Assembly: GCA_903859375.1 (NCBI GenBank)
Contig: CAIOMK010000059.1
Span: 3,438-67,437, forward strand
Source of the DNA: Candidatus Moraniibacteriota bacterium
Lineage (GTDB): Bacteria; Patescibacteriota; Minisyncoccia; Moranbacterales; UBA1568
Length of the DNA: 64,000 nt
Direction: 5' to 3'
A model generated the notes under the pieces. The model did no database searches. It was not told the origin of the DNA and saw nothing but the letters and a program-made list of their open reading frames with translations. Made by a program: the position numbers and the translations under genes. Positions 5,872-52,384 of the stretch are shown piece by piece (position 1 is the first letter of the stretch; each line of letters begins with the position of its first letter).

Positions 5872-5941
5872 GAATACGAGTCGAAAGTATCAAGTCCAAA
5901 GTCTATACGCCTATGACCCGTCGCGGTTAGGCTGTATAAAC

Positions 5942-6016: not shown

Positions 6017-6089
6017 CGGAGTGTGGTATAGTGGTATTACGCACGATTCGGGTTCGTGTAATCCGGGTTCGATTCCCGGCACTCCGACA
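6017..6089 (+). tRNA. tRNA-Pro, anticodon CGG
   Basis: Acceptor stem CGGAGTG/CACTCCG. Anticodon stem CACGA/TCGTG with loop UUCGGGU (anticodon CGG, G37). T-arm CCGGG-TTCGATT-CCCGG. Discriminator A, no encoded CCA. Confidence 0.8.
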
Positions 6090-6249
6090 AAACAAGACTT
6101 GAAAAATGCGCAGGGTTACGGGTTTGCGAAGCATCCGGCGCATGCTGGACGATTCCCGGCACTCCGACAAAACAAGACTTGAAAAATGCGCAGGGTGACG
6201 GGTTTGCGAAGCATCCGGCGCATGCTGGACGATTCCCGGCACTCCGACA
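6071..6249 (+). repeat. Tandem direct repeat, 80-bp unit, 2.2 copies. Each copy starts with the last 19 nt of tRNA-Pro (GATTCCCGGCACTCCGACA).
   Basis: Units at 6071-6150 and 6151-6230 differ by 1 nt, with a partial third copy at 6231-6249. The first copy is the genuine tRNA 3' end. Each unit contains an internal ATGCGC...GCGCAT inverted repeat. Confidence 0.85.
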
Positions 6250-10292: not shown

Positions 10293-10784
10293 TTAGGTTC
10301 CTTTCATAGGTATTTTCACGATACGAAGCAGGAACATGGCGAGTGCCTCAAAGGGGATAACCTCACCGAGAAACGGTATTCCCTGAAACGCTCCGGCGAG
10401 AAACAATATCAATTCCCGCATCGCGATAACTTTGATCCGCGCTTTGATAGGCAGTTTCCGTGTCGATGGATCGTAATAGACGATAGCGGCCTGGATAGCC
10501 GTAAAGCAGAATGAGATAAGCCATGAAACTCCGGGGATCCACCCGAATATGAAGGCAAGTACCCATCCCAGAGCGCCGACCATAACGCCGAGCAACAGTG
10601 TCGTGGTCGACATTTTCCCGGCGCCTGCTCCGGCGCCGACCGGTACCGATGTGGGTGTCGCGTTCCTTTTCGGAGCGCTTTCACTCAGAACATCGTCATC
10701 GTTTGACTCATCGTCATCGACCGTGTCTTGGATATGTGTCGGCATAGGACGCTTATCGGTATCAGGATTCCCCTTGTTCCTCAT
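10293..10784 (-). CDS. Small membrane protein with an acidic N-terminus and 3 TM segments. Possibly starts at the internal Met MSTTTLL.
   Basis: ORF overlaps the VirB4 stop by 23 nt. Hydrophobic segments GVMVGALGWVLAFIF and LISFCFTAIQAAIVYY. Confidence 0.45.
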   Translation of the reverse strand: MRNKGNPDTDKRPMPTHIQDTVDDDESNDDDVLSESAPKRNATPTSVPVGAGAGAGKMSTTTLLLGVMVGALGWVLAFIFGWIPGVSWLISFCFTAIQAAIVYYDPSTRKLPIKARIKVIAMRELILFLAGAFQGIPFLGEVIPFEALAMFLLRIVKIPMKGT

Positions 10785-13140
10785 CGAACTCCTTCTTCGC
10801 TGCTTCGATCTCGATCATCTGACGGGGATCGGTAGTGATGATCTGGTCCTCACTGTAAGAGGCGATGACCTTGATGGCGACATGCTTGGTCCCGACGAAA
10901 AAGATCCCTTCACCGACGCTCGACTCAAGCAGGAGAAATTTCTCATGATCGGTCAGATAAAACGTTTCGGCGATAAGGTCGATTGACGATGGGGACTGCT
11001 TCAGGAGCAACTGTATGGACGAGTTCGTGATGATAGGCTTGCCGTATCGGGAAGAGAGGAAGTCACCGATGTCCTGTGTGATGGTCGTCAGTCCCGCATA
11101 GTATTTGCGACACCGTTTGGCGATTCCAAACATGAATGCGGCGGCATCCTCGTTCTGCATCATGATCCAAGCCTCATCGACAACGATCATCCGTTTCTTG
11201 GTCTCCGCGCGGATCTCGTTCCAGATGAATTGCAGGATGATGTACATCGCGACCGGCCGGAGTTCGTTCTCGAGATCGCGGATGTTGAAGATGACCATCT
11301 GCTTGTTCATCGAGATGTTGGTCTGATGATTAAGGAATCCTCCGAACACACCTTCGGTATATCGTTCAAGGCGCGCCGCAAGCGATTCCCCTCCTTCGAG
11401 ATTCCGGAGGACGGCATGCAGGTCGGACATCGTCGGGAACGACGATGCGTCGAGAGCGCGCAGGTCCGAGAGCTCTGTGATGTCCCTGATAGCATAGGTC
11501 TCACGGATCGAACGGTCGAGCACGGAATCCTCTTCCGGTGAAACCGCACCGAGCATAAGGTGTAGCAAGCCTATCAGGTTCGCGATATGGCTCCGGAACA
11601 CGCCCTCGTCATCGTCCGTCGTACCGATTTTCGGCAGATCGAACGGATTCAGGTGTGACTCGGACGAAAGAGAGATACCCAAGAACGACCCGCCGACAGT
11701 ATCACACAGATGTTGGTATTCGTTCTCCGGGTCGATGATGATCACAGACGTTCCGAACATCATTGCGCGCAACACCTCGAGCTTGATCGTATAGCTTTTT
11801 CCGGCACCGGACTTGGCAAAGACGACCATGTTCGCATTCTCCATCTTGAACCGGTCGAACAAGACGAGCGAATTATTGTGACGGTTGATGCCGTAGAGCA
11901 CGCCTTCATTCGACGACAGGTCAGATGAGACGAACGGGAACGTCGTCGAAAGCGGTGACGTATTGAGATTGTTTGCGATATCAAGCGTGTCCATGCCGAG
12001 CGGACGGGTCGAAATGAATCCCTGATCCATCCGAAGAATGGCCGGTTTAGAAAACACCATCTGTGCCTCAAGAATGGCCTCTATCCCCTGCGAGATATCC
12101 GAAAGAGTCTTCTCATCCTGAGCATAGACGGTTATATAGATTCCGAATCGGAAAAATTTCTCCGTCCCCTGCTGGAGACTGTCACGAAGTTCCTCGATAT
12201 TCTCGAGTGCGGATTCAAGGACGGGATCGCGTATTTTTCCGTCCTGGGACTCGATGGACATCTGCGACTGCACCTGTGTTGCGGACCGCCTCAGGTCCTT
12301 CATGATTTCCCGTGTGTCTATCGGATGTATGGAAAACGATATGTCCATCGGCGCATCCATGTTTATGATGGGCGAGAACCAGTTCGTTCCGAGATATTTC
12401 GGGTACGCGACGATAAACAATGTTTTTGCGAGCACATCACCCACTTGCATGGATGTAGGCGACAATCTGATCGCCGACGGCGCTATCAGGTCTCTCAATG
12501 TCGCCACGCCCTGGGAGTACAGGTCCCGGTTCGTCGCATCGGCGGTCTTCGCGGGATGTGGCAGACTTGGAAGTCCGAAGTGTCCAGACGACGCCTTGCG
12601 GGCTACGGGAGACACCTCCTTTGGAACGACGAATGCCGCGTTCGAAGCCGGCTTGATCGGCAAGACGGGATCTGTCAAAAGGGCATCTTGTTCAGGCCTC
12701 CACGCTGCTCGCGGTTGGGGAGCCGGCTCTACGGGAGCGACAGGCGCAGTTACTTGAGCCTCTGTATCGATTCCCCACGCCCCATAAACAGGAGCCTTAT
12801 TGACACTCCGCTCCGGAGCATGAAAAGGAAAGGGGGGGTTGCTCTCGACTGGGTGGACTTGTCCTTCACTACCTTGGTACATTCCTTCTTGCGGTACCTC
12901 CGGGAGGAAAAAAGGGTCGACCGGACGGGTCGGCTCGGAGTCACCGACAGTCGGAATATCAGAATACGGTGAAGTATCGGTTTGTGATTGGGACGGGAGT
13001 TGCGTTGACGGTTGGACAGACGGTGCGACCGGACTGCCGGAAGAATCCGCATTCATTCGTGATTGAGGCGTCAGTTTCCACGGATTGGATGAGGAGGTGA
13101 GATTCAGCCCGTCATCTTCGAAAACGATACTTTGTTTCAT
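10762..13140 (-). CDS. VirB4/TcpF/PrgJ-family type IV secretion ATPase with a ~230-aa Pro/Ser-rich disordered N-terminal extension
   Basis: Walker A FAKSGAGKSYT, IIIDPENEY (VirB4 D-P-E-x-E-Y), and Walker B MIVVDEAW. C-terminal TQ region. Confidence 0.8.
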   Translation of the reverse strand: MKQSIVFEDDGLNLTSSSNPWKLTPQSRMNADSSGSPVAPSVQPSTQLPSQSQTDTSPYSDIPTVGDSEPTRPVDPFFLPEVPQEGMYQGSEGQVHPVESNPPFPFHAPERSVNKAPVYGAWGIDTEAQVTAPVAPVEPAPQPRAAWRPEQDALLTDPVLPIKPASNAAFVVPKEVSPVARKASSGHFGLPSLPHPAKTADATNRDLYSQGVATLRDLIAPSAIRLSPTSMQVGDVLAKTLFIVAYPKYLGTNWFSPIINMDAPMDISFSIHPIDTREIMKDLRRSATQVQSQMSIESQDGKIRDPVLESALENIEELRDSLQQGTEKFFRFGIYITVYAQDEKTLSDISQGIEAILEAQMVFSKPAILRMDQGFISTRPLGMDTLDIANNLNTSPLSTTFPFVSSDLSSNEGVLYGINRHNNSLVLFDRFKMENANMVVFAKSGAGKSYTIKLEVLRAMMFGTSVIIIDPENEYQHLCDTVGGSFLGISLSSESHLNPFDLPKIGTTDDDEGVFRSHIANLIGLLHLMLGAVSPEEDSVLDRSIRETYAIRDITELSDLRALDASSFPTMSDLHAVLRNLEGGESLAARLERYTEGVFGGFLNHQTNISMNKQMVIFNIRDLENELRPVAMYIILQFIWNEIRAETKKRMIVVDEAWIMMQNEDAAAFMFGIAKRCRKYYAGLTTITQDIGDFLSSRYGKPIITNSSIQLLLKQSPSSIDLIAETFYLTDHEKFLLLESSVGEGIFFVGTKHVAIKVIASYSEDQIITTDPRQMIEIEAAKKEFDEEQGES

Positions 13141-13144
13141 AGGG

Positions 13145-13438
13145 TCAACGTTTGGAAAGTTCGAGCTGGTCGACGTTCTTGATGATGGTCGTAGCGAAGA
13201 CTGATGGGTTATAGGTGTTATAGAGCAGCTCGATAGTTTCTTCCGTCCCGAGCATCTTCGTCAGCACGCCGGTTCCGGAGAGTGCCGACGCGACCTGATC
13301 GGCACGCTGTAACAGCTGGTTCCGATAGGTTTCAAATGTCTCACTATGAGAAACCGACCCGGAACTCGGCTGAAAAATACCGGACAGTTTCCCGAGAAGT
13401 CCGCCGGACTCCGTTTCCGACGGTGCGAACGGAACCAC
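13145..13438 (-). CDS. Hypothetical 97-aa protein immediately upstream of the VirB4-like gene
   Basis: Complete ORF in operon context. No TM and no known motif. Confidence 0.4.
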   Translation of the reverse strand: MVPFAPSETESGGLLGKLSGIFQPSSGSVSHSETFETYRNQLLQRADQVASALSGTGVLTKMLGTEETIELLYNTYNPSVFATTIIKNVDQLELSKR

Positions 13439-13453
13439 GACATAAAAGAATTT

Positions 13454-13831
13454 CTACATGATATTCGAGACATCGGTCAGATTCCGAACGAAATTCCGAT
13501 ACTCGGAAATTTGAAACCGGAGCAGTTCGTTCTCCTGATGCTTCTCCTCTTCGACAAGCTTCTCAAGATACGGCTCGACTCGGAAACGACGGGAGTGGAC
13601 GATAATCTGCAACGGAAAATCGAGCGAATTCAGGAATCCCTGATATTGACTGATGATCGCATCCTGCTCATCGCTCGATTTCAGGTCGAAGTTAATCGAG
13701 GAAACAAGCAGTATACAACGAATCGAACCGTTTTTGAGCACGATAATACCGTCGCGGACATCTTCGACGTCCACGTACTTCTGCGTACTCGACGCATCCG
13801 ATTCATGTTTTTTTGGGGTAAGAAATTCCAT
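13454..13831 (-). CDS. Hypothetical 126-aa protein. Start taken at the internal Met (13831); the upstream part of the ORF is repeat-derived.
   Basis: The ORF-track N-terminus MKVTSRKRGRERGRK lies in the tandem-repeat array. MEFLTPKK is the first Met outside the repeats. Confidence 0.4.
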   Translation of the reverse strand: MEFLTPKKHESDASSTQKYVDVEDVRDGIIVLKNGSIRCILLVSSINFDLKSSDEQDAIISQYQGFLNSLDFPLQIIVHSRRFRVEPYLEKLVEEEKHQENELLRFQISEYRNFVRNLTDVSNIM

Positions 13832-13849
13832 AGGATCGATTCGTTTTCG

Positions 13850-14465
13850 TTTTTCTCTTTCTGTTCCTTTCCGTCCCCGCTCCCGTCCCCGCTTTCGACT
13901 TGTAACTTTCAACTTGTAACTTTCGACTATTCTTCCCCGTCCCCGTCCCCGCTTTCGACTACTCTCCCCCCGTCCCCGTCCCCGCTTTCAACTTGTAACT
14001 TTCGACTATTCTTCCCCTTCCCCACTTTCGACTTGTAACTTTCGACTTATGACTACTCTCCGACTTGTGACTATTCTCCGCTTTTCGACTTTTCACTTTT
14101 CACTTTCGACTACTCTCCCCCCGTTCCCGTTCCCGTCCCCACTTTCGACTTGTAACTTGTGACTACTCTCCTCCCGTTCCCGTCCCCGCTTTCGACTATT
14201 CTTCCCCGTTCCCGCTTTCGACTTGTGACTTGTGACTTGTGACTTGTGACTGTTCTCCGACTTGTGACTACTCTCCTCCCGTTCCCGTTCCCGTCCCCAC
14301 TTTCGACTATTCTTCCCCGCCCCCGCTTTCGACTTTCGACTATTCTTCCCCGTTCCCACTTTCGACTTGTAACTTTCGACTTATGACTACTCTCCGACTT
14401 ATGACTACTCTCCGACTTATGACTACTCTCCCCCCGTTCCCGTTCCCGCTTTTCATTTCCTATCT
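13850..14465. repeat. Complex ~600-bp microsatellite-like array built from CCCGT(C/T)CCCG, CTTTCGACT, TGTAACTTTCGACT, TGTGACT and ATGACTACTCTCCGACTT (3x) motifs
   Basis: Direct reading of 13861-14460. Intergenic within the T4SS-like operon. Overlapping minus ORFs 14093..14359 and 14110..14778 are repeat artefacts. Confidence 0.8.
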
Positions 14466-14936
14466 CGTATCCATAAGCTTCGCGACCCTTCGTATGTCCT
14501 CGGCACTGACCGTTTTCAAATGAACCGGTTCGTTTCCCGATTTCGCTTTCATCGGCTGATATCCCGGCAAAGAAGATGGCCTTCTCCACATGAGCACTTT
14601 CGGATGCAACATGAAGAAGAAAGCGTGAACCACGTAACTGAGAAGAGGCTGTCCCGCAGGTCGATAAAATGCCAGCAGAACGAACAATACCACGATCGGC
14701 ACAGCGACGACGAAAGTCACCGTACCGGGAAAAATCGCCGCAACCGACAAGACAGTCGCGAACATGCCGATCATCCAAAACAGTTGCTTGACTGTCAGTG
14801 GACCGGCAACCTTGTCCTCGACATCTATGAACTGCGGTACATTGAACATCATAACATGGAATTGAATAGTGAACCTACCGTTGAAAACCGACGGAATACG
14901 CATGGATAGCCGTTCAATTCCCGCACAGGTCATCAA
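14460..14936 (-). CDS. PrgI/VirB3-like small membrane protein (2 TM) of Gram-positive-type T4SS. Start uncertain.
   Basis: Motif KVAGPLTVKQLFWMIGMF followed by two TM helices resembles the PrgI family. Positioned in the T4SS operon. Confidence 0.45.
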   Translation of the reverse strand: MMTCAGIERLSMRIPSVFNGRFTIQFHVMMFNVPQFIDVEDKVAGPLTVKQLFWMIGMFATVLSVAAIFPGTVTFVVAVPIVVLFVLLAFYRPAGQPLLSYVVHAFFFMLHPKVLMWRRPSSLPGYQPMKAKSGNEPVHLKTVSAEDIRRVAKLMDTR

Positions 14937-14955: not shown

Positions 14956-16719
14956 TCATCTGTTCAAAATATTGTCGACATCTTCTTCGAGGCTGGTTGA
15001 TTTAGTTTGGAAACTTACAGGGTGAATACTGAACGGATTTACTCTGACAGCCGGCGTGGTGGTAGCGGGCTTCACAGTCTCCTGAACCAGCACGGGCTGG
15101 AAGGATGGGATCGACGGCACGAGCGGGGCTGGTGTCCCTGAAACATCGGCAATGACGGTCGGCACGGTTTTCGCGACGGGAGGAACCGAAACAGCCGGCG
15201 TGGCGGGCGCGACAGATGCAGGAGTATGAGCTTCGGGCTGTTTTCGACTGACACCGAACGCACTCAATCCGGATGGAAGGGACACAACTTCGTCTTTATG
15301 GATGGAAAAATCTCCCTGACCGTGAGTTTCAAATGGAAGGGAATGGCTTGAGGAAATAGTTATACTACCACCGGCCGACTGTATCGGCGTATCTGCGATT
15401 TCATCATGCCCGGCGGAAGAAAATGTTTCATTTTTTCCGTAAACAGATGGCGCCACATCGGGAGATTCTGCCTTTTGTGCCTTCTCGACAGTACGGGAAG
15501 AGAAACTTATCGAAGCGGTATTATCGATTCCTTTCACTGCACTTCCTTCGACACGAAGACTTTCGACTGGGAGGTTCGAAGGCGGTACGGGTTTGAACGA
15601 TACAGGTTGTCGGAGCGGCGCCTGCGGAGGTACTGCCGGCGTGACCGGAGCCGGTGATTGTGGCCATGCCGGAGCGGATACCGGAGCCGGTGCCGGTGCC
15701 GGTGTCGGTGTCGGTGTCGGAGCTGGTGCGGACGATATCGGCGTTGCAACTGAAACGGGCTTCACTGAGACCGGAGCAACAAACGGCCTGGCAGCGACAG
15801 CTTTCACAGAAGCAGGATTGGACACGTTGGGTGTCGGTGCCGGAGAGGTGACCGATCTCTCATAAAATCCGGTGGCAGGAAGAGGCGCGGTTTGAAACGG
15901 AGCCGTCACCGACACTGGTCGGGCCGAAACGGCATTCGGCGAAACGGGAACAGGCTTCGCTGCGGTCGGCGCGAATGTGGGGAAAACGATTTCGTATTTT
16001 TGTGCGTCGATATCAAGCGCGAAATTCTCCTCGATCGAACGGAGGATGAGATTGACCCGCTCACGTTCTTCCGAAGAAAGACGCTTACCGTTCTCGGAAT
16101 CGAACAGGAACTTGCCACGAATCATCGGCTCATGATAGCCGACACCGAGCTCGTCACGATATACCCGCATCCAGTTCATGAGACTCGGTCGGACAGACTC
16201 GGGCTGATTCCTTACGCGGATACGCTCCTTCGTGATCTGCTGTTCCCCAAGCCTCGGATACTTCCCCAGTGCCTGCACAATCGCAAGATGTTCCAGATTT
16301 GCATCGGTAGGATCGACATCGGCTTTCGGTCGCACAGAAAGTATTTTTCGCTGAAAGTCCCCTATCATGCCTTGTACGACTCCGGCCTCACGACCTTTTT
16401 GTGAAAAGAATTGGTAAATATTGTTTCCACATTCCTGAATGGACCATTCATGAAAATAGAATTTTCTGACAGCCTGACTTATGAAGGCGATTTCCCCATC
16501 ACCAAGATGTTGATTCTGTCCGAATGTGTAAATCGCCTCCGGAAGCTCTCTCGCGGTAAGGATATCCCGAATGTCAGTAGAAAGCGAATCATATTTCGCC
16601 CATAAAATACTATCTTCTTCCAAAGTAGTCTTATATTTCCCGTCGCCTTCGGTTATCGAAGCAAACATCGGGAAATAGCACCACTTCTTTTCATATTCTT
16701 TTTTATTTGTTCCATCCAT
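14956..16719 (-). CDS. Hypothetical 587-aa protein: folded ~240-aa N-terminal domain plus ~340-aa Pro/Ala/Val/Ser-rich disordered tail
   Basis: Complete ORF with repetitive PAPTPTPTPAPAPAPVSAP-type sequence. No catalytic motif. Confidence 0.6.
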   Translation of the reverse strand: MDGTNKKEYEKKWCYFPMFASITEGDGKYKTTLEEDSILWAKYDSLSTDIRDILTARELPEAIYTFGQNQHLGDGEIAFISQAVRKFYFHEWSIQECGNNIYQFFSQKGREAGVVQGMIGDFQRKILSVRPKADVDPTDANLEHLAIVQALGKYPRLGEQQITKERIRVRNQPESVRPSLMNWMRVYRDELGVGYHEPMIRGKFLFDSENGKRLSSEERERVNLILRSIEENFALDIDAQKYEIVFPTFAPTAAKPVPVSPNAVSARPVSVTAPFQTAPLPATGFYERSVTSPAPTPNVSNPASVKAVAARPFVAPVSVKPVSVATPISSAPAPTPTPTPAPAPAPVSAPAWPQSPAPVTPAVPPQAPLRQPVSFKPVPPSNLPVESLRVEGSAVKGIDNTASISFSSRTVEKAQKAESPDVAPSVYGKNETFSSAGHDEIADTPIQSAGGSITISSSHSLPFETHGQGDFSIHKDEVVSLPSGLSAFGVSRKQPEAHTPASVAPATPAVSVPPVAKTVPTVIADVSGTPAPLVPSIPSFQPVLVQETVKPATTTPAVRVNPFSIHPVSFQTKSTSLEEDVDNILNR

Positions 16720-16771: not shown

Positions 16772-19129
16772 CTATGGGACCAGGCCTTCTACTTTCCACG
16801 AATTCTTCTGATTTCCATCCAAGTGTTTATACGCTTCCTGCATATCTTGAATCGTCCAGACTCCGGCAGTATATTTGTCCTCAACAAATGTCTTCAAATG
16901 TGTGTTCATGCTTCCAGGTGTCCCATCTCCATGCATATCCTTCAGTTTGCCGATATCACCAGCTGTCATCTTTGCAAAATGATCGGTATACACTTGAGCA
17001 TCAGATGTCCCAGGGGGAGCAATGGAGATTTCATGCTGAATAATCGGTTCGATTCGGCCTTCCTTTCTCAGCCTGCCGTCAAATTTCTTCTTCAGCTCCG
17101 GATTGGCGGTAAAAGCGGGATTGTTCACCAGAGACTGATACTGGGCAAGATTCATCTTCATCGCATCGCCATCGACCTTGTCGAGAAGTGTAGCAATCGA
17201 TTTGAAATCATCCCCAAGATGCCCGATGGAGGCGATCATCCCTGCCGCATCTTGCATGACCTTCTTATCGACCTTACGGACGATATCAGCTTTCCCTTCA
17301 GGGCTCGCTACGGCATTGATAGCATTATCAAGATCGGACTGGTTCCGGATAGCATCCTTTTTGACAAGCATTCTGGCGGCGGCTTCCCTTTCTGCGACCG
17401 TCGCCTTCAAGTTACTGGGGTCGATATACTCGCGAAGCTTCGCATCATCATGCTTCTTTTCCTCAAATTGCTTTTCTGCATCCGTGACATTCCGTTTGTG
17501 AATCTCTGCGGATGCCGACTGAGTTCCCTTCGCCCATCCTTTTTCTGCGACGCTCTTTGCCTGCAATTCACGATCTTTCGCTGTTTCTTCCCTCTTTCCA
17601 ATCTTTTTAAGTTGATTTGCCCCCCATTCTCCACCCACATTCTTTCCGAACAACTGCCCTGTCTTGGTAACATTCTTCACACCCGCGACCGTACCTCTTG
17701 CAGTGGTCCTTGTAAAACTATTTTTGCCACTCTGACCGACCGTCCCAACAAACAAAGCACCTTTTCCGGCTTTTTTCGCCATCGACTTTGAGAATTTCTT
17801 CGCCGCACCGGCGACGGCCGACGCACCGGCGATGCCGGACGAACCCATGACCGAAATCGACATCCAGATAAAGATGACCGGCAACATGGTCGTGACTGCG
17901 GACGCGACATTTATCCCCCCTATATTCTTGGCTATATTGTCCAACTGCGTCCTGGCCGAGGAGCTGTTGAACTCACTCATCACCTTTACCGAAACCAGGA
18001 GCATCAACGCAGAAGTCGGTCCGAAAATGATATATTTCAGAAAATTATCCCACCACTGGCCGGAAAATTTCTGAAGTCCCGGAATAGCCGTCCCCACAAA
18101 TCCTATCGGTGAAAAGATAATCAGCGCCAAGAGAACGAGAATACGGATGAACAAGAGCGCACCGAGCGCGATAAGCGAGAACCCGAAGATAAAAATGAAA
18201 ACGATCGCGATCAGCATGTCTTTGATCTGATCGACTGATCCGTGTTGCACGAATGTGGACTTGTCCGCGTCTGTCAATATGTTGTTGACGATACCCGAAG
18301 TCTTGAATGCGGTCGAGGATATCGCATCGCCGGCACTTTTCGTCTTGTCCGCGGAAAGACTGTTCAGGAAGAAATACATCGGCACATTACCCGCATCGAT
18401 AAGGAATCGAGCTATAGGGAAACTGAAGTTGGTGAGGAGCGCCATCAGAATGAGGTTCCAGAGGAGTTTTTTGTAGTTGTAGGCCTGCACTTGGAATATC
18501 GTCGCAAACGCGATGAAGAGTATCGTCAGTATGAAGAATAGGTTGAAGAAATCCCGTACCATCCGCCACAGGGTGTATACCGCACTCAGATTGAACAGGC
18601 CGGTCACGGCGATCGGGTTCAGTACGAACGAAAGGAGGACTACACCTAAGGTGATAATAAAACTGACCAGACCGAGTACGGCATGTATCAACTTTGCGAG
18701 GGCCCACAGAAACGTTTCCCCAGGCCCTGAGCCTGATTGCTCGTATTTATTCGTTAGGCCAGCTTCCTCCCTCGCGGTTTTATCGTTCGTGAACTCCCCC
18801 CACCTCGCGATCTGAGCGGGTACGTTTCCTGAGCAAAACGTTACGCACGCTGCCAAGTCAGTCGTCGTTTGCGATGATAGCTCATGGAGGCGTGTCGTAT
18901 CAGTCGAGGCATAACATTGACACGTCCCTGCCGCGGATACAGGCGTCGGTGATGCGCTGATAAAAAAGAAAATACTTGCGACGAAAAACGCCGAAAGCAG
19001 GGCAGGGGAAAGACGGAAAAAAATGTTTCTCTTTTGTTTCACACTCAGAACGTCCCCAAAGGGGCGAAAATCCGTACAAAGAATCAACCGACAGAATCCA
19101 GACATATCATCACTGAAAGAATACCACAA
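16772..19129 (-). CDS. VirB6/TcpH-like polytopic membrane protein of the T4SS-like system. Probable true start is the GTG at 19042, which would give a signal peptide.
   Basis: More than 8 TM segments in the central region and a long soluble C-terminal domain. GTG at 19042..19040 is preceded by GGGGA and yields MKQKRNIFFRLSPALLSAFFVASIFFFISASPTPVSAAG. Confidence 0.65.
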   Translation of the reverse strand: MWYSFSDDMSGFCRLILCTDFRPFGDVLSVKQKRNIFFRLSPALLSAFFVASIFFFISASPTPVSAAGTCQCYASTDTTRLHELSSQTTTDLAACVTFCSGNVPAQIARWGEFTNDKTAREEAGLTNKYEQSGSGPGETFLWALAKLIHAVLGLVSFIITLGVVLLSFVLNPIAVTGLFNLSAVYTLWRMVRDFFNLFFILTILFIAFATIFQVQAYNYKKLLWNLILMALLTNFSFPIARFLIDAGNVPMYFFLNSLSADKTKSAGDAISSTAFKTSGIVNNILTDADKSTFVQHGSVDQIKDMLIAIVFIFIFGFSLIALGALLFIRILVLLALIIFSPIGFVGTAIPGLQKFSGQWWDNFLKYIIFGPTSALMLLVSVKVMSEFNSSSARTQLDNIAKNIGGINVASAVTTMLPVIFIWMSISVMGSSGIAGASAVAGAAKKFSKSMAKKAGKGALFVGTVGQSGKNSFTRTTARGTVAGVKNVTKTGQLFGKNVGGEWGANQLKKIGKREETAKDRELQAKSVAEKGWAKGTQSASAEIHKRNVTDAEKQFEEKKHDDAKLREYIDPSNLKATVAEREAAARMLVKKDAIRNQSDLDNAINAVASPEGKADIVRKVDKKVMQDAAGMIASIGHLGDDFKSIATLLDKVDGDAMKMNLAQYQSLVNNPAFTANPELKKKFDGRLRKEGRIEPIIQHEISIAPPGTSDAQVYTDHFAKMTAGDIGKLKDMHGDGTPGSMNTHLKTFVEDKYTAGVWTIQDMQEAYKHLDGNQKNSWKVEGLVP

Positions 19130-33008: not shown

Positions 33009-33113
33009 GTGTATATCTCCTGTTTGAATTGTGAAATGAACTGTTTCCATCTTCAGAAGTACGTCCAAGACATACCGCTGAAGATGGAGCCGACAAGAAT
33101 TATTCAAGTCGGC
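33009..33113 (-). repeat. Copy C of the two-hairpin intergenic module
   Basis: See copy A. The hairpin-2 loop differs slightly (GTCCAAG vs GTACGAG). Confidence 0.85.
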
Positions 33114-33818
33114 TCAAATTTTAACCAATAACAGGGACCGCATAGTTCACGCTACGGTCTACGATGTGCCAGGAGTCGCAACGTATAGTTGCATCTCCAG
33201 ACATATCGCCTTGCTCTGTTATCGGTGTTGGTATCCGGCCGGCATATGAAGAAATGTCGTTGACACTCCTTCATAAGATCCTTAGCCGAGATGCCCTGTG
33301 ATGGGAGAACTCAATCTCCGTATTCGTAGCGGGGCTTGCTCGGAAGACGTCTAGCGTGGACGCTCCACTGTTCGTCGAGACATGAACAAAAATTCATATC
33401 TCAAACGACCACCTCCTACCTACGAACCATCACCTCCTCTAGCAACGAGGCCTGTTCTCTTTGCTTCATTTCCCCTTTCGACTCAACAGAGAGAGAAAGG
33501 GTCTTCTGTTCCTGGCGGGTGAAGCGTCCCCGCCATGGGTATCCGTCTTTATGAGTCGCGCCATTGCGACCGACGGTTTGCCCATAGAATCCATAATGGA
33601 TTCTCCTCTGACTATCAAATTATCGCGCCATGCCGATGAGACAGGTGCAAATGAGTGAGTCCTCATCGCGGCTCAAGAGTACGCGTGTACCATGAGCATG
33701 ATAGCCTTCTGATTGCTACTGTTAACGGCGCACCAGGTTTCCCTGTTCAGAACGCGAATTTTTCAATTCACAGCCTGAATGAGGAGGAGAAGATACTGCG
33801 TTGATATATCTTCTCCGA

Positions 33819-52137: not shown

Positions 52138-52384
52138 AATCTATCGTATAATACTTCGACTTCCATACTATCAGATGCGCGCTCTCTCTTCCACCCGCTC
52201 TTTCTACCGTACGCTTTTGACTTTCGACTTTTGACTTTCGGCTGACCAGCTTCACCGGCCTGATATTTGACACAACCCTTTTTCCTTGCTATTTTACCTC
52301 TTCACAGGCGTTTTCCGGCGCACGCAAAGAGGGGCTCCGGAGATTCTGCGAAACTCCGTTTCCGACTTTTCTGATATTCCGCCT

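What the first reader, a model, noticed from the sequence alone, without database searches (positions are those of the whole stretch)
13850..14465. 600-bp complex microsatellite array inside the T4SS-like operon
A dense array of short C/T-rich motifs lies between the PrgI-like gene and the small ORFs that precede the VirB4-like gene. The motifs are CCCGTCCCCG, CTTTCGACT, TGTAACTTTCGACT, and a triplicated ATGACTACTCTCCGACTT.

The array is strand-asymmetric: pyrimidine-rich on the plus strand and purine-rich on the coding minus strand. It generates low-complexity pseudo-ORFs (SHKSESSHKSE..., GTGTGTGGE).

Repeat-number variation here could shift expression of, or translational coupling to, the downstream VirB4 module, which would be a phase-variation-like switch. 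It could also reflect a recombination hotspot.
Basis: seen in the sequence. Interest (0 to 1): 0.5.

Follow-up and report, generated by a model that had tools for sequence, protein, structure and literature searches.

The report
Lineage-specific purine-rich minisatellite in T4SS operon
A 585-base patchwork of short repeats sits between two type IV secretion genes of one Candidatus Moranbacteria (Patescibacteria/CPR) species; it is real, but it looks like an ordinary species-specific tandem-repeat expansion of an intergenic spacer, not a demonstrated genetic switch.

Summary
Window 13866-14450 is a dense compound repeat array. It fills the 628-nt gap between the PrgI/VirB3-like gene and a TraC-like gene that precedes VirB4, all on the minus strand. 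The sense strand is 75% purine, the most skewed stretch in the 64 kb.

The array mixes heptamers (AGTCGAA, AGTTACA, AGTCACA, AGTCATA), G-hexamers (CGGGGA/CGGGAA) and short linkers, copied again as 18-, 33- and ~100-nt blocks. It has no inverted repeats, no promoter- or terminator-like sites, no Rfam match and no continuous ORF. Its RNA folds worse than shuffled controls.

Gene order is conserved in 74 other Moranbacteria species, but the array is not: their median gap is 38.5 nt. The closest relatives have 144-183-nt gaps carrying one to three copies of the same words. Those words also occur in unrelated intergenic regions of this small group of related species.

Four independent assemblies carry an identical array. 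A fifth lacks one 33-nt unit, bounded by 21-nt direct repeats.

Best reading: a slippage-grown minisatellite (variable-number tandem repeat) carried passively inside the operon transcript. A phase-variation switch is not supported. Protein-binding or G-quadruplex roles remain untested.

The parts
13866..14450 (-). Compound repeat array of 585 nt. The sense (minus) strand is built from heptamers AGTCGAA/AGTTACA/AGTCACA/AGTCATA, hexamers CGGGGA/CGGGAA and linkers GGAGAGT/AGAAT.
13832..14459 (-). Whole intergenic gap (628 nt) between the PrgI-like stop codon and the TraC-like start codon.
13835..13855 (-). A-rich leader GAAAAACGAAAACGAATCGAT just upstream of the TraC-like ATG. It is shared with the closest relative L089, so it is the ancestral 3' end of the gap.
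14377..14431 (-). Perfect 18-nt x3.1 tandem repeat.
14220..14251 (-). Perfect 7-nt x4.6 tandem repeat (sense AGTCACA).
14320..14352 (-). 33-nt unit absent from assemblies L002/L085. It is bounded by the 21-nt direct repeat CGGGGAAGAATAGTCGAAAGT (14332-14352 and 14299-14319).
14278..14298 (-). Canonical G-quadruplex motif (four G3+ runs, loops of 2-3 nt) on the sense strand.
14117..14140 (-). Second canonical G-quadruplex motif on the sense strand. These two are the only ones in the 64 kb on either strand.
14460..14933 (-). PrgI/VirB3-like gene (157 aa), upstream flank of the array.
13454..13831 (-). N-terminal 125 codons of the TraC-like gene (PF26593). It ends at a TAG that is TCG in most assemblies.
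13145..13438 (-). C-terminal 97-codon remainder of the TraC-like gene.
10762..13140 (-). VirB4-like ATPase (792 aa).
5879..5903 (+). Short run of the same heptamers (AGTCGAAAGTATCAAGTCCAAAGTC), 8 nt after the stop codon of the CCA-adding-enzyme gene, on its sense strand.
52216..52237 (-). Short run of the same heptamers (AAGTCAAAAGTCGAAAGTCAAA), about 80 nt upstream of tsaE, on its sense strand.

Best explanation
The array is a compound minisatellite (variable-number tandem repeat) specific to one lineage. It grew by repeated replication slippage or unequal recombination from a few short words already present in the ancestral PrgI-to-TraC-like spacer of a small group of related Moranbacteria species (shown).

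I infer that it is transcribed as part of the minus-strand T4SS operon and acts as a passive spacer. It is probably tolerated because its purine-only sense strand forms no hairpins or terminators and is C-poor. By general knowledge of Rho, which binds C-rich RNA, that would make it a poor Rho-loading site.

Its one predictable effect is to separate PrgI/VirB3 translation from TraC-like/VirB4 translation, which are nearly adjacent in relatives. The downstream gene must therefore initiate on its own from the conserved A-rich leader (inferred). Copy number still drifts by whole units.
For: 1. Not conserved. The gene order 587-aa gene, PrgI, TraC-like, VirB4 holds in 74 other species. Their PrgI-to-TraC-like gap has a median of 38.5 nt, a 90th percentile of 121 and a maximum of 448. 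This lineage has 628.
2. Seeds in the closest relatives.
   - L089/L091 (VirB4 75% identical over full length) has a 144-nt gap with GCAAGTCAAAAGTCGGCAAGTCAC, AACGGGAAAGGG and the same 3' leader.
   - L004 has 183 nt with AGTTGAAAGTC, GAGTCGGAGAGG, CGAAAGTC and ACGGGAACGAAGTCAC.
3. Hierarchical duplication. Repeats occur at 7-, 18-, 33- and 40-nt periods, with 100 nt at 88% identity at offset 334.
4. A clean 33-nt unit deletion bounded by a 21-nt direct repeat occurs in one of five assemblies that are otherwise 99.8-99.98% identical.
5. No promoter- or terminator-like site inside the gap and no inverted repeat. The RNA folds worse than shuffles, z = +3.6 sense and +4.9 antisense. No Rfam match even at E<=1.
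6. All three sense frames are interrupted.
7. The words are generic intergenic vocabulary of this small group of species, not T4SS-specific. They occur after the CCA-adding-enzyme gene, upstream of tsaE, and after recR on a contig from the same JGI sample series as the L089 contigs.
8. The sense strand of this spacer is purine-rich in 47 of 52 species with gaps of at least 25 nt (p = 1e-9). The array therefore exaggerates a general property of this spacer.
Against: - No expression data exist. Read-through and 'passive spacer' are inferences from absent signals, and the promoter/terminator scans are simple consensus scans.
- Period-7 runs recur in the same spacer in a second lineage with a different word: L093 has TGACAAC x11.6.
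- Every short heptamer run seen lies on the sense strand of its neighbouring gene.
- The only two canonical G-quadruplex motifs in 64 kb lie in the array.
- These three points hint at selection on a protein-binding or RNA property rather than pure drift.
- The array is identical in four assemblies, so it is not hypervariable on this timescale.
- The single length variant comes from a short-read assembly and could in principle be an artefact.
Confidence: 0.6

Rival explanations
1. RNA-level regulatory element. The long, unstructured, G- and GGA-rich sense transcript would form G-quadruplexes or recruit an RNA-binding protein. That would tune translation or stability of the downstream TraC-like/VirB4 message relative to PrgI.
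For: - The sense strand has 31 G3+ runs and no C3+ run.
- The only two canonical G-quadruplex motifs of the whole window lie in the array.
- With quadruplex energies allowed, the predicted minimum free energy drops from -84.5 to -123.7 kcal/mol and three quadruplexes appear.
- All heptamer runs are on the sense strand of adjacent genes.
- The sense strand of this spacer is purine-rich across species.
Against: - Absent from 74 related species that have the same operon.
- No Rfam family matches.
- No conserved structure; the RNA is less folded than shuffles.
- No candidate binding protein is known.
- Only 2 of about 10 G-blocks meet the canonical quadruplex rule.
Confidence: 0.15
2. DNA-level binding array. 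Contiguous 7-bp direct repeats would serve as operator- or centromere-like sites for a small DNA-binding protein of this group of species. This would resemble the heptad arrays bound by the ribbon-helix-helix protein omega (ParB) of plasmid pSM19035.
For: - Seven runs of 3-5 contiguous heptamers.
- AGTCACA x4 differs by one base from the omega heptad WATCACW. In that system at least 4 contiguous heptads are the functional minimum (PMC9499535).
- Period-7 runs recur in the same spacer in L093.
- Short runs occur at two other intergenic sites in the window.
Against: - Most heptamers are AGTCGAA or AGTTACA, not WATCACW.
- All are direct repeats; omega sites mix orientations.
- The runs are interrupted by G-blocks.
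- No ribbon-helix-helix or partition protein was recognised among the 30 window ORFs scanned against Pfam.
- The locus is chromosomal and inside an operon, not at a promoter.
- Strict sense-strand orientation is not expected for a DNA site.
Confidence: 0.1
3. Phase-variation (contingency) switch. Changes in unit number would turn expression of the VirB4 module on or off.
For: A unit-number variant exists in one assembly.
Against: - The tract is neither in a coding frame nor between promoter hexamers.
- The variant is a 33-nt unit about 490 nt upstream of the next start codon.
- Four of five assemblies are identical.
- Translational coupling is not plausible across 628 nt (PMC12548453).
Confidence: 0.05
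4. The array encodes small repetitive peptides, or a relay of short ORFs that hands ribosomes from PrgI to the TraC-like gene, as proposed for mycobacterial interspersed repetitive units (MIRUs).
For: - A 38-codon ATG ORF starts 3 nt after the PrgI stop codon.
- ORFs of 88, 45 and 32 codons follow. The 88- and 45-codon ORFs overlap by 4 nt (GTGA).
- The TraC-like frame is open 27 codons upstream of its ATG.
Against: - The later ORFs use GTG starts, and reading the sequence shows no obvious Shine-Dalgarno sequence upstream.
- Their products are low-complexity.
- None is conserved in L089, L004 or L093, whose gaps are unrelated in length.
- No ORF ends on the TraC-like start codon.
- Gene callers on four assemblies called nothing here.
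Confidence: 0.03

Closest known systems
Bacterial intergenic minisatellites / VNTR loci (the kind used for MLVA typing)
   Same: Head-to-tail short units in a non-coding spacer. Higher-order duplications. Whole-unit copy-number difference between near-identical strains, bounded by direct repeats.
   Different: It is a compound of at least three unit types (7, 6 and 18/33 nt) rather than one unit. Its strand purine bias is extreme. It sits inside a conserved T4SS operon of a reduced CPR genome.
Mycobacterial interspersed repetitive units (MIRUs; PMC12548453)
   Same: Repeats inside operons, co-oriented with the genes, with related copies at several intergenic loci and variable copy number.
   Different: MIRUs carry an ORF coupled at -4 nt to the downstream start codon. 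No array ORF ends on the TraC-like start codon. The dispersed copies share words, not a defined unit.
Omega (ParB) heptad arrays of pSM19035, 5'-WATCACW-3' x7-10 (PMC9499535)
   Same: Contiguous 7-bp repeats. One word (AGTCACA) is one base from the consensus. Some runs have at least 4 copies.
   Different: Most words differ from the consensus. All are direct repeats. G-blocks interrupt the runs. The array does not overlap a promoter. No ribbon-helix-helix or ParA partner was seen. The locus is chromosomal.
Simple-sequence contingency loci (phase variation in Haemophilus and Neisseria; from general knowledge)
   Same: Slippage-prone tandem repeats next to surface or secretion genes.
   Different: Those tracts lie in a reading frame or in the promoter spacer. 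This one lies between a stop codon and a start codon and has no promoter-like site.
REP/BIME/ERIC intergenic elements (from general knowledge)
   Same: Intergenic sequence vocabulary dispersed through the genome and specific to a small group of species.
   Different: Those elements are palindromic. This array has no inverted repeats and folds worse than shuffled sequence. The relatives' hairpin element (CATGCCCCGTGRCCGAG...TTTACGGGG) is absent from the window.

Membership tests
Bacterial minisatellite / VNTR | Head-to-tail tandem copies of short units, more than expected by chance | tested here: met
   TRF finds 19 rows in 13871-14448. Motif counts are 19 against 0.75 expected and 8 against 0.11 expected.
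Bacterial minisatellite / VNTR | Copy-number difference between strains by whole units | tested here: met
   L002/L085 lack one 33-nt unit bounded by 21-nt direct repeats. The window, L001, L003 and L096 are identical. The evidence comes from assemblies, not reads.
Simple-sequence contingency (phase-variation) locus | The tract lies within a reading frame or between the -35 and -10 promoter hexamers | tested here: not met
   The tract lies between the PrgI stop codon (14460) and the TraC-like ATG (13831). There is no promoter-like site in 13832-14459.
Simple-sequence contingency (phase-variation) locus | ON/OFF expression variants within a population | not testable with these tools
   Needs reads, transcriptomes or reporters.
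MIRU-like operon repeats | The unit carries an ORF whose end overlaps the downstream start codon (-4 nt coupling) | tested here: not met
   No array ORF ends at 13831. The nearest ORFs end at 13927 and 13959. Feature as described in PMC12548453.
MIRU-like operon repeats | The same unit is dispersed at many intergenic loci, co-oriented with genes | tested here: inconclusive
   Only short runs of shared heptamers occur at 5879-5903 and 52216-52237, and in L088. All are on the sense strand, but no full unit is shared. Only 64 kb of this genome is available.
REP/BIME/ERIC palindromic elements | Imperfect palindrome able to form a stem-loop | tested here: not met
   0 inverted repeats. Fold z-scores are +3.6 and +4.9 against shuffles.
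Omega/ParB-type heptad operator or centromere | At least 4 contiguous 7-bp repeats | tested here: met
   Three runs of 5 heptamers (including AGTCACA x4 plus AGTCGAA), two runs of 4 and two runs of 3.
Omega/ParB-type heptad operator or centromere | Heptad consensus WATCACW, in mixed direct and inverted orientation | tested here: not met
   The commonest words are AGTCGAA (15), AGTCACA (7) and AGTTACA (6). All are direct repeats. Consensus taken from PMC9499535.
Omega/ParB-type heptad operator or centromere | Overlaps promoters of par/cop genes, with a cognate ribbon-helix-helix protein encoded nearby | tested here: not met
   No promoter-like site. No RHH, ParA or ParB domain in the 30 window ORFs scanned. 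The rest of the genome was not seen.
G-quadruplex-forming sequence | Four G3+ runs with loops of 1-7 nt | tested here: met
   Two sites, 14278-14298 and 14117-14140, on the sense strand. They are the only ones in 64 kb. Actual folding was not tested.
Known structured RNA family (Rfam), including CsrB/RsmZ-type sponge RNAs | Match to a curated covariance model | tested here: not met
   0 matches at E<=1 in 13600-14700. Only tRNAs were found in relatives' loci.

The most novel reading that the evidence does not exclude
The heptamer-plus-G-block vocabulary could be a cis-acting signal specific to this small group of species. It always lies on the sense strand and recurs with period 7 in the same T4SS spacer in at least two lineages. 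It might be read by an unknown RNA- or DNA-binding protein, or through RNA G-quadruplexes. In that case this species would have amplified it about ten-fold to reset the expression ratio of VirB3 to the VirB4 module in a T4SS thought central to the epibiotic lifestyle.
Probability: 0.12. Interest if true: 0.6.

Novelty: new member of a known kind. Interest (0 to 1): 0.25.

Why it matters
As it stands, the array matters mainly in practice. It is a strain-typing (VNTR) marker for this Moranbacteria population. It is also a likely cause of contig breaks in short-read assemblies: the PrgI gene is found on contigs shorter than 5 kb in 20 index blocks, against 4 for VirB4.

It also shows that a tightly packed, conserved CPR operon can absorb 0.6 kb of non-coding repeats between VirB3 and the VirB4 module.

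If the heptamer and G-block words proved to be a real binding signal, they would give a rare handle on gene regulation in uncultured Patescibacteria.

Tried and rejected
- Known RNA family: no hit at Rfam gathering threshold or at E<=1 on the array, and only tRNAs at E<=0.1 on four relatives' loci.
- Internal promoter or terminator: none in the gap.
- Palindromic REP-like element: no inverted repeats.
- Coding: the frames are interrupted, gene callers called nothing, and nothing is conserved.
- Mobile or viral origin: the 21-nt core pattern has 0 hits in IMG/VR. It has 2 hits in JGI metagenome contigs, and both are the same recR-adjacent locus of a related organism.
- Conserved operon element: rejected by the gap survey of 74 species.
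- Hairpin element of relatives (CCCCGTGRCCGAG): not present in the window above chance.
- Cognate small DNA-binding protein: none recognised among the 30 window ORFs scanned against Pfam.
- More population alleles: the contig look-up collapses places with the same neighbouring proteins, so only five independent assemblies could be compared. The window's own 587-aa variant is not in that collection.
- Assembly artefact: rejected, because the identical array occurs in four assemblies from at least three samples.

Full report
**1.

The plus strand of 13850-14465 is a dense C/T-rich repeat field. Tandem Repeats Finder (TRF) lists 19 overlapping rows between 13871 and 14448. Among them are a perfect 18-nt x3.1 repeat (14377-14431), a perfect 7-nt x4.6 repeat (14220-14251) and 33-nt units at 90-91% identity. 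Direct-repeat families reach 10 copies, and there are no inverted repeats.

AGTCGAAAG occurs 19 times in the window against 0.75 expected, and 15 of these are in the array. CGGGRACGGGRA occurs 8 times against 0.11 expected, all in the array.

GC skew (-0.41 to -0.56) and AT skew (-0.43 to -0.55) are extreme across 13800-14499. Purine content on the sense (minus) strand is 0.754. This is the most skewed 585-nt stretch of the 64 kb and lies 5.4 sd from the mean.

**2. Anatomy**

Read on the minus strand, which carries the genes, the array is a mosaic of three kinds of word:
- Heptamers: AGTCGAA (15 including the AGTCGAAAG form), AGTCACA (7), AGTTACA (6), AGTCATA (4), AGTGAAA (2).
- G-hexamers: CGGGAA (8) and CGGGGA (6), in blocks of 2-3.
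- Linkers: GGAGAGT or AGAAT.

These pieces are copied again at higher levels, with 18-, 33- and 40-nt periods and a 100-nt segment repeated at offset 334 with 88% identity. The core array spans 13866-14450.

The last 21 nt before the next start codon (13835-13855, GAAAAACGAAAACGAATCGAT) are not repetitive. They are shared with the closest relative.

**3. Context**

The organism is a Candidatus Moranbacteria (Patescibacteria/CPR), judged from the names on VirB4 homologues and on related genome records. The window is chromosomal: it carries IF-2, the CCA-adding enzyme, two tRNAs, DNA polymerase I, TsaE and a tyrosine recombinase (Pfam Phage_integrase).

On the minus strand the order of features is:
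- a LysM-CHAP hydrolase
- a 777-aa gene
- a 587-aa gene
- PrgI/VirB3-like (14460-14933, Pfam PrgI)
- the 628-nt gap
- TraC-like (PF26593)
- VirB4-like (10762-13140)
- genes of 150, 221 and 932 aa

In this window and in L001 it is cut by a single TCG->TAG change at 13454-13456. Most assemblies have the intact gene.

**4. What the array is not**

- Known RNA: no Rfam family matches, even at E<=1.
- Transcription signal: no sigma-70-like promoter or intrinsic-terminator-like site lies inside 13832-14459.
- Structured RNA: both strands fold worse than dinucleotide shuffles. The sense strand gives -84.5 against -101.9 +/- 4.8 kcal/mol (z = +3.6), and the antisense strand gives z = +4.9.
- Coding: all three sense frames are interrupted. 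The ORFs present (38, 88, 45 and 32 codons) are low-complexity. Gene callers on four independent assemblies called nothing here.
- Viral: the 21-nt core pattern is absent from IMG/VR.
- Assembly artefact: the exact 628-nt sequence is present in L001, L003 and L096 as well as in the window. These come from at least three samples and, judging by record names (k141_ contigs versus METAG scaffolds), possibly different assembly pipelines.

**5. Comparative evidence**

An alignment of VirB4 homologues recovered 80 related loci from one-genome-per-species GTDB representatives. The order 587-aa gene, PrgI, TraC-like, VirB4 is conserved.

In 74 species the PrgI-to-TraC-like gap has a median of 38.5 nt, a 90th percentile of 121 and a maximum of 448. 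The 448-nt case (L032) looks like unique, non-repetitive sequence. The window lineage, at 628 nt, is the longest and the only one with such an array. The array is therefore not a conserved part of the operon.

The closest relatives carry the raw material:
- **L089/L091** (VirB4 75% identical over full length) has a 144-nt gap. It begins GCAAGTCAAAAGTCGGCAAGTCAC, contains AACGGGAAAGGG and ends with the same leader as the window.
- **L004** (TraC-like 80% identical) has two paralogous ~180-nt elements, one before and one after PrgI. They contain AGTTGAAAGTC, GAGTCGGAGAGG, ACGGGGTCGAGAGT, ACGGGAACGAAGTCAC and a hairpin CATGCCCCGTGRCCGAG...TTTACGGGG.
- **L093** (VirB4 82% identical over 85% of its length) has TGACAAC x11.6 in the homologous gap.

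Runs of three or more AGTNNNA heptamers occur in only three kinds of place:
- the array itself;
- two other intergenic sites of the window, 5879-5899(+) after the CCA-adding-enzyme gene and 52216-52236(-) upstream of tsaE;
- a recR-adjacent spacer (L087/L088) on contigs from the same JGI sample series (Ga01723xx) as the L089 contigs.

None occurs in about 0.88 Mb of other Moranbacteria loci. All of these runs lie on the sense strand of the adjacent gene.

Across species, the sense strand of this spacer is purine-rich in 47 of 52 gaps of at least 25 nt (p = 1e-9).

**6. Population evidence**

Five independent assemblies are 99.76-99.98% identical over 10-14 kb. Four have the identical array. 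L002/L085 lacks 33 nt (window 14320-14352). The deleted unit starts with CGGGGAAGAATAGTCGAAAGT, and the same 21 nt follow it immediately, which is the classic footprint of slippage between direct repeats.

Exact repeats in the array are shorter than the assemblers' k of 141, so a trivial collapse is unlikely. The evidence still comes from assemblies rather than reads.

**7. Most likely explanation (confidence 0.6)**

The array is a lineage-specific compound minisatellite (variable-number tandem repeat). It grew by successive slippage or unequal recombination from intergenic words that this small group of related species shares.

The shown steps are:
- absence of the array in relatives;
- seeds of its words in the closest relatives;
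- nested duplication;
- a whole-unit indel bounded by direct repeats.

The inferred steps are these. The array is read through as part of the operon transcript. It is tolerated because the purine-only sense strand cannot form hairpins or terminators and is C-poor. General knowledge of Rho, which loads on C-rich unstructured RNA, suggests that this also avoids premature termination in 0.6 kb of untranslated RNA. Its predictable consequence is to separate PrgI translation from TraC-like/VirB4 translation, which are nearly adjacent in relatives. The downstream gene would then initiate independently at the conserved A-rich leader.

**8. Rival explanations**

- **RNA-level element (0.15).** The array holds 31 G3+ runs and the only two canonical G-quadruplex motifs in 64 kb. 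Allowing quadruplex energies lowers the predicted energy to -123.7 kcal/mol. The orientation bias also fits. However, the array is not conserved, has no family match and has no known partner.
- **DNA heptad-binding array like omega/ParB of pSM19035 (0.1).** There are runs of at least 4 contiguous heptads, and AGTCACA is one base from WATCACW (PMC9499535). However, most words differ, all repeats are direct, there is no promoter overlap, and no ribbon-helix-helix or Par protein was found among the 30 window ORFs scanned.
- **Phase-variation switch (0.05).** The tract is outside any reading frame and any promoter spacer.
- **Peptide coding or MIRU-like ORF relay (0.03).** No ORF ends on the downstream start codon, and nothing is conserved (PMC12548453).

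**9. Comparison with known systems, and verdict**

It behaves like an ordinary bacterial intergenic VNTR and meets that family's two defining features. It fails the defining tests for contingency loci, MIRUs, REP-type palindromes, omega heptad sites and any Rfam family.

The study of Patescibacteria T4SS that was searched (PMC12102498) has no occurrence of 'intergenic' or 'operon'. I found no prior description of this repeat vocabulary in four literature searches.

Verdict:
- The feature is real and was correctly described.
- The switch interpretation is not supported.
- Novelty: new member of a known kind.
- Interest: 0.25.

The recurrence of period-7 runs on the sense strand in this group of species remains unexplained.

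Noticed in passing
window 13454-13456 (minus strand): The TraC-like T4SS gene (228 aa in most assemblies) is cut into 125- and 97-codon ORFs by a single TCG->TAG change. The truncated form is on record in only 3 index blocks of the collection, against 139 for the adjacent VirB4 protein. This may be a strain-level loss-of-function allele.
   Followed up: partly
window 6070-6249: An 80-bp unit starting with the 3' end of the tRNA at 6017-6087 is tandemly repeated 2.2 times at 99% identity. Assembly L001 has one copy fewer. It could be a second VNTR or the scar of integration at a tRNA.
   Followed up: partly
L004 3166-3448 and 3842-4024; L007 3676-3856; L088 6660-6850; L093 3861-4050: A hairpin element CATGCCCCGTGRCCGAG...TTTACGGGGTCGAAAG recurs in intergenic regions of the closest relatives. 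L004 has two paralogous copies flanking PrgI. It has no Rfam match and is absent from the window.
   Followed up: partly
L093 4446-4526: The homologous PrgI-to-TraC-like spacer of another lineage carries TGACAAC x11.6. This is an independent period-7 run built from a different word, also on the sense strand.
   Followed up: partly
L079, L008 and L028 PrgI-to-TraC-like gaps (coordinates): In several more distant species the same spacer appears, by eye, to form a long imperfect hairpin: a purine-rich arm followed by its complement. That is the opposite of the hairpin-free array here and might be an attenuator-like structure.
   Followed up: no
window 33108-33778: A 671-nt stretch has no ORF of at least 90 codons and no Rfam hit at gathering threshold. 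It may hold a divergent non-coding RNA or a small gene.
   Followed up: no
window 15667-15729: An imperfect 6/12/18-nt repeat lies in a run of (Ala/Thr)-Pro dipeptides (APTPTPTPAPAPAP) in the 587-aa gene upstream of PrgI. That protein differs among assemblies (98.98-99.83% identity).
   Followed up: no
window 18692-18746 versus L096: Assembly L096 differs from the window in this stretch. There the 777-aa gene is called as 639 aa.
   Followed up: no
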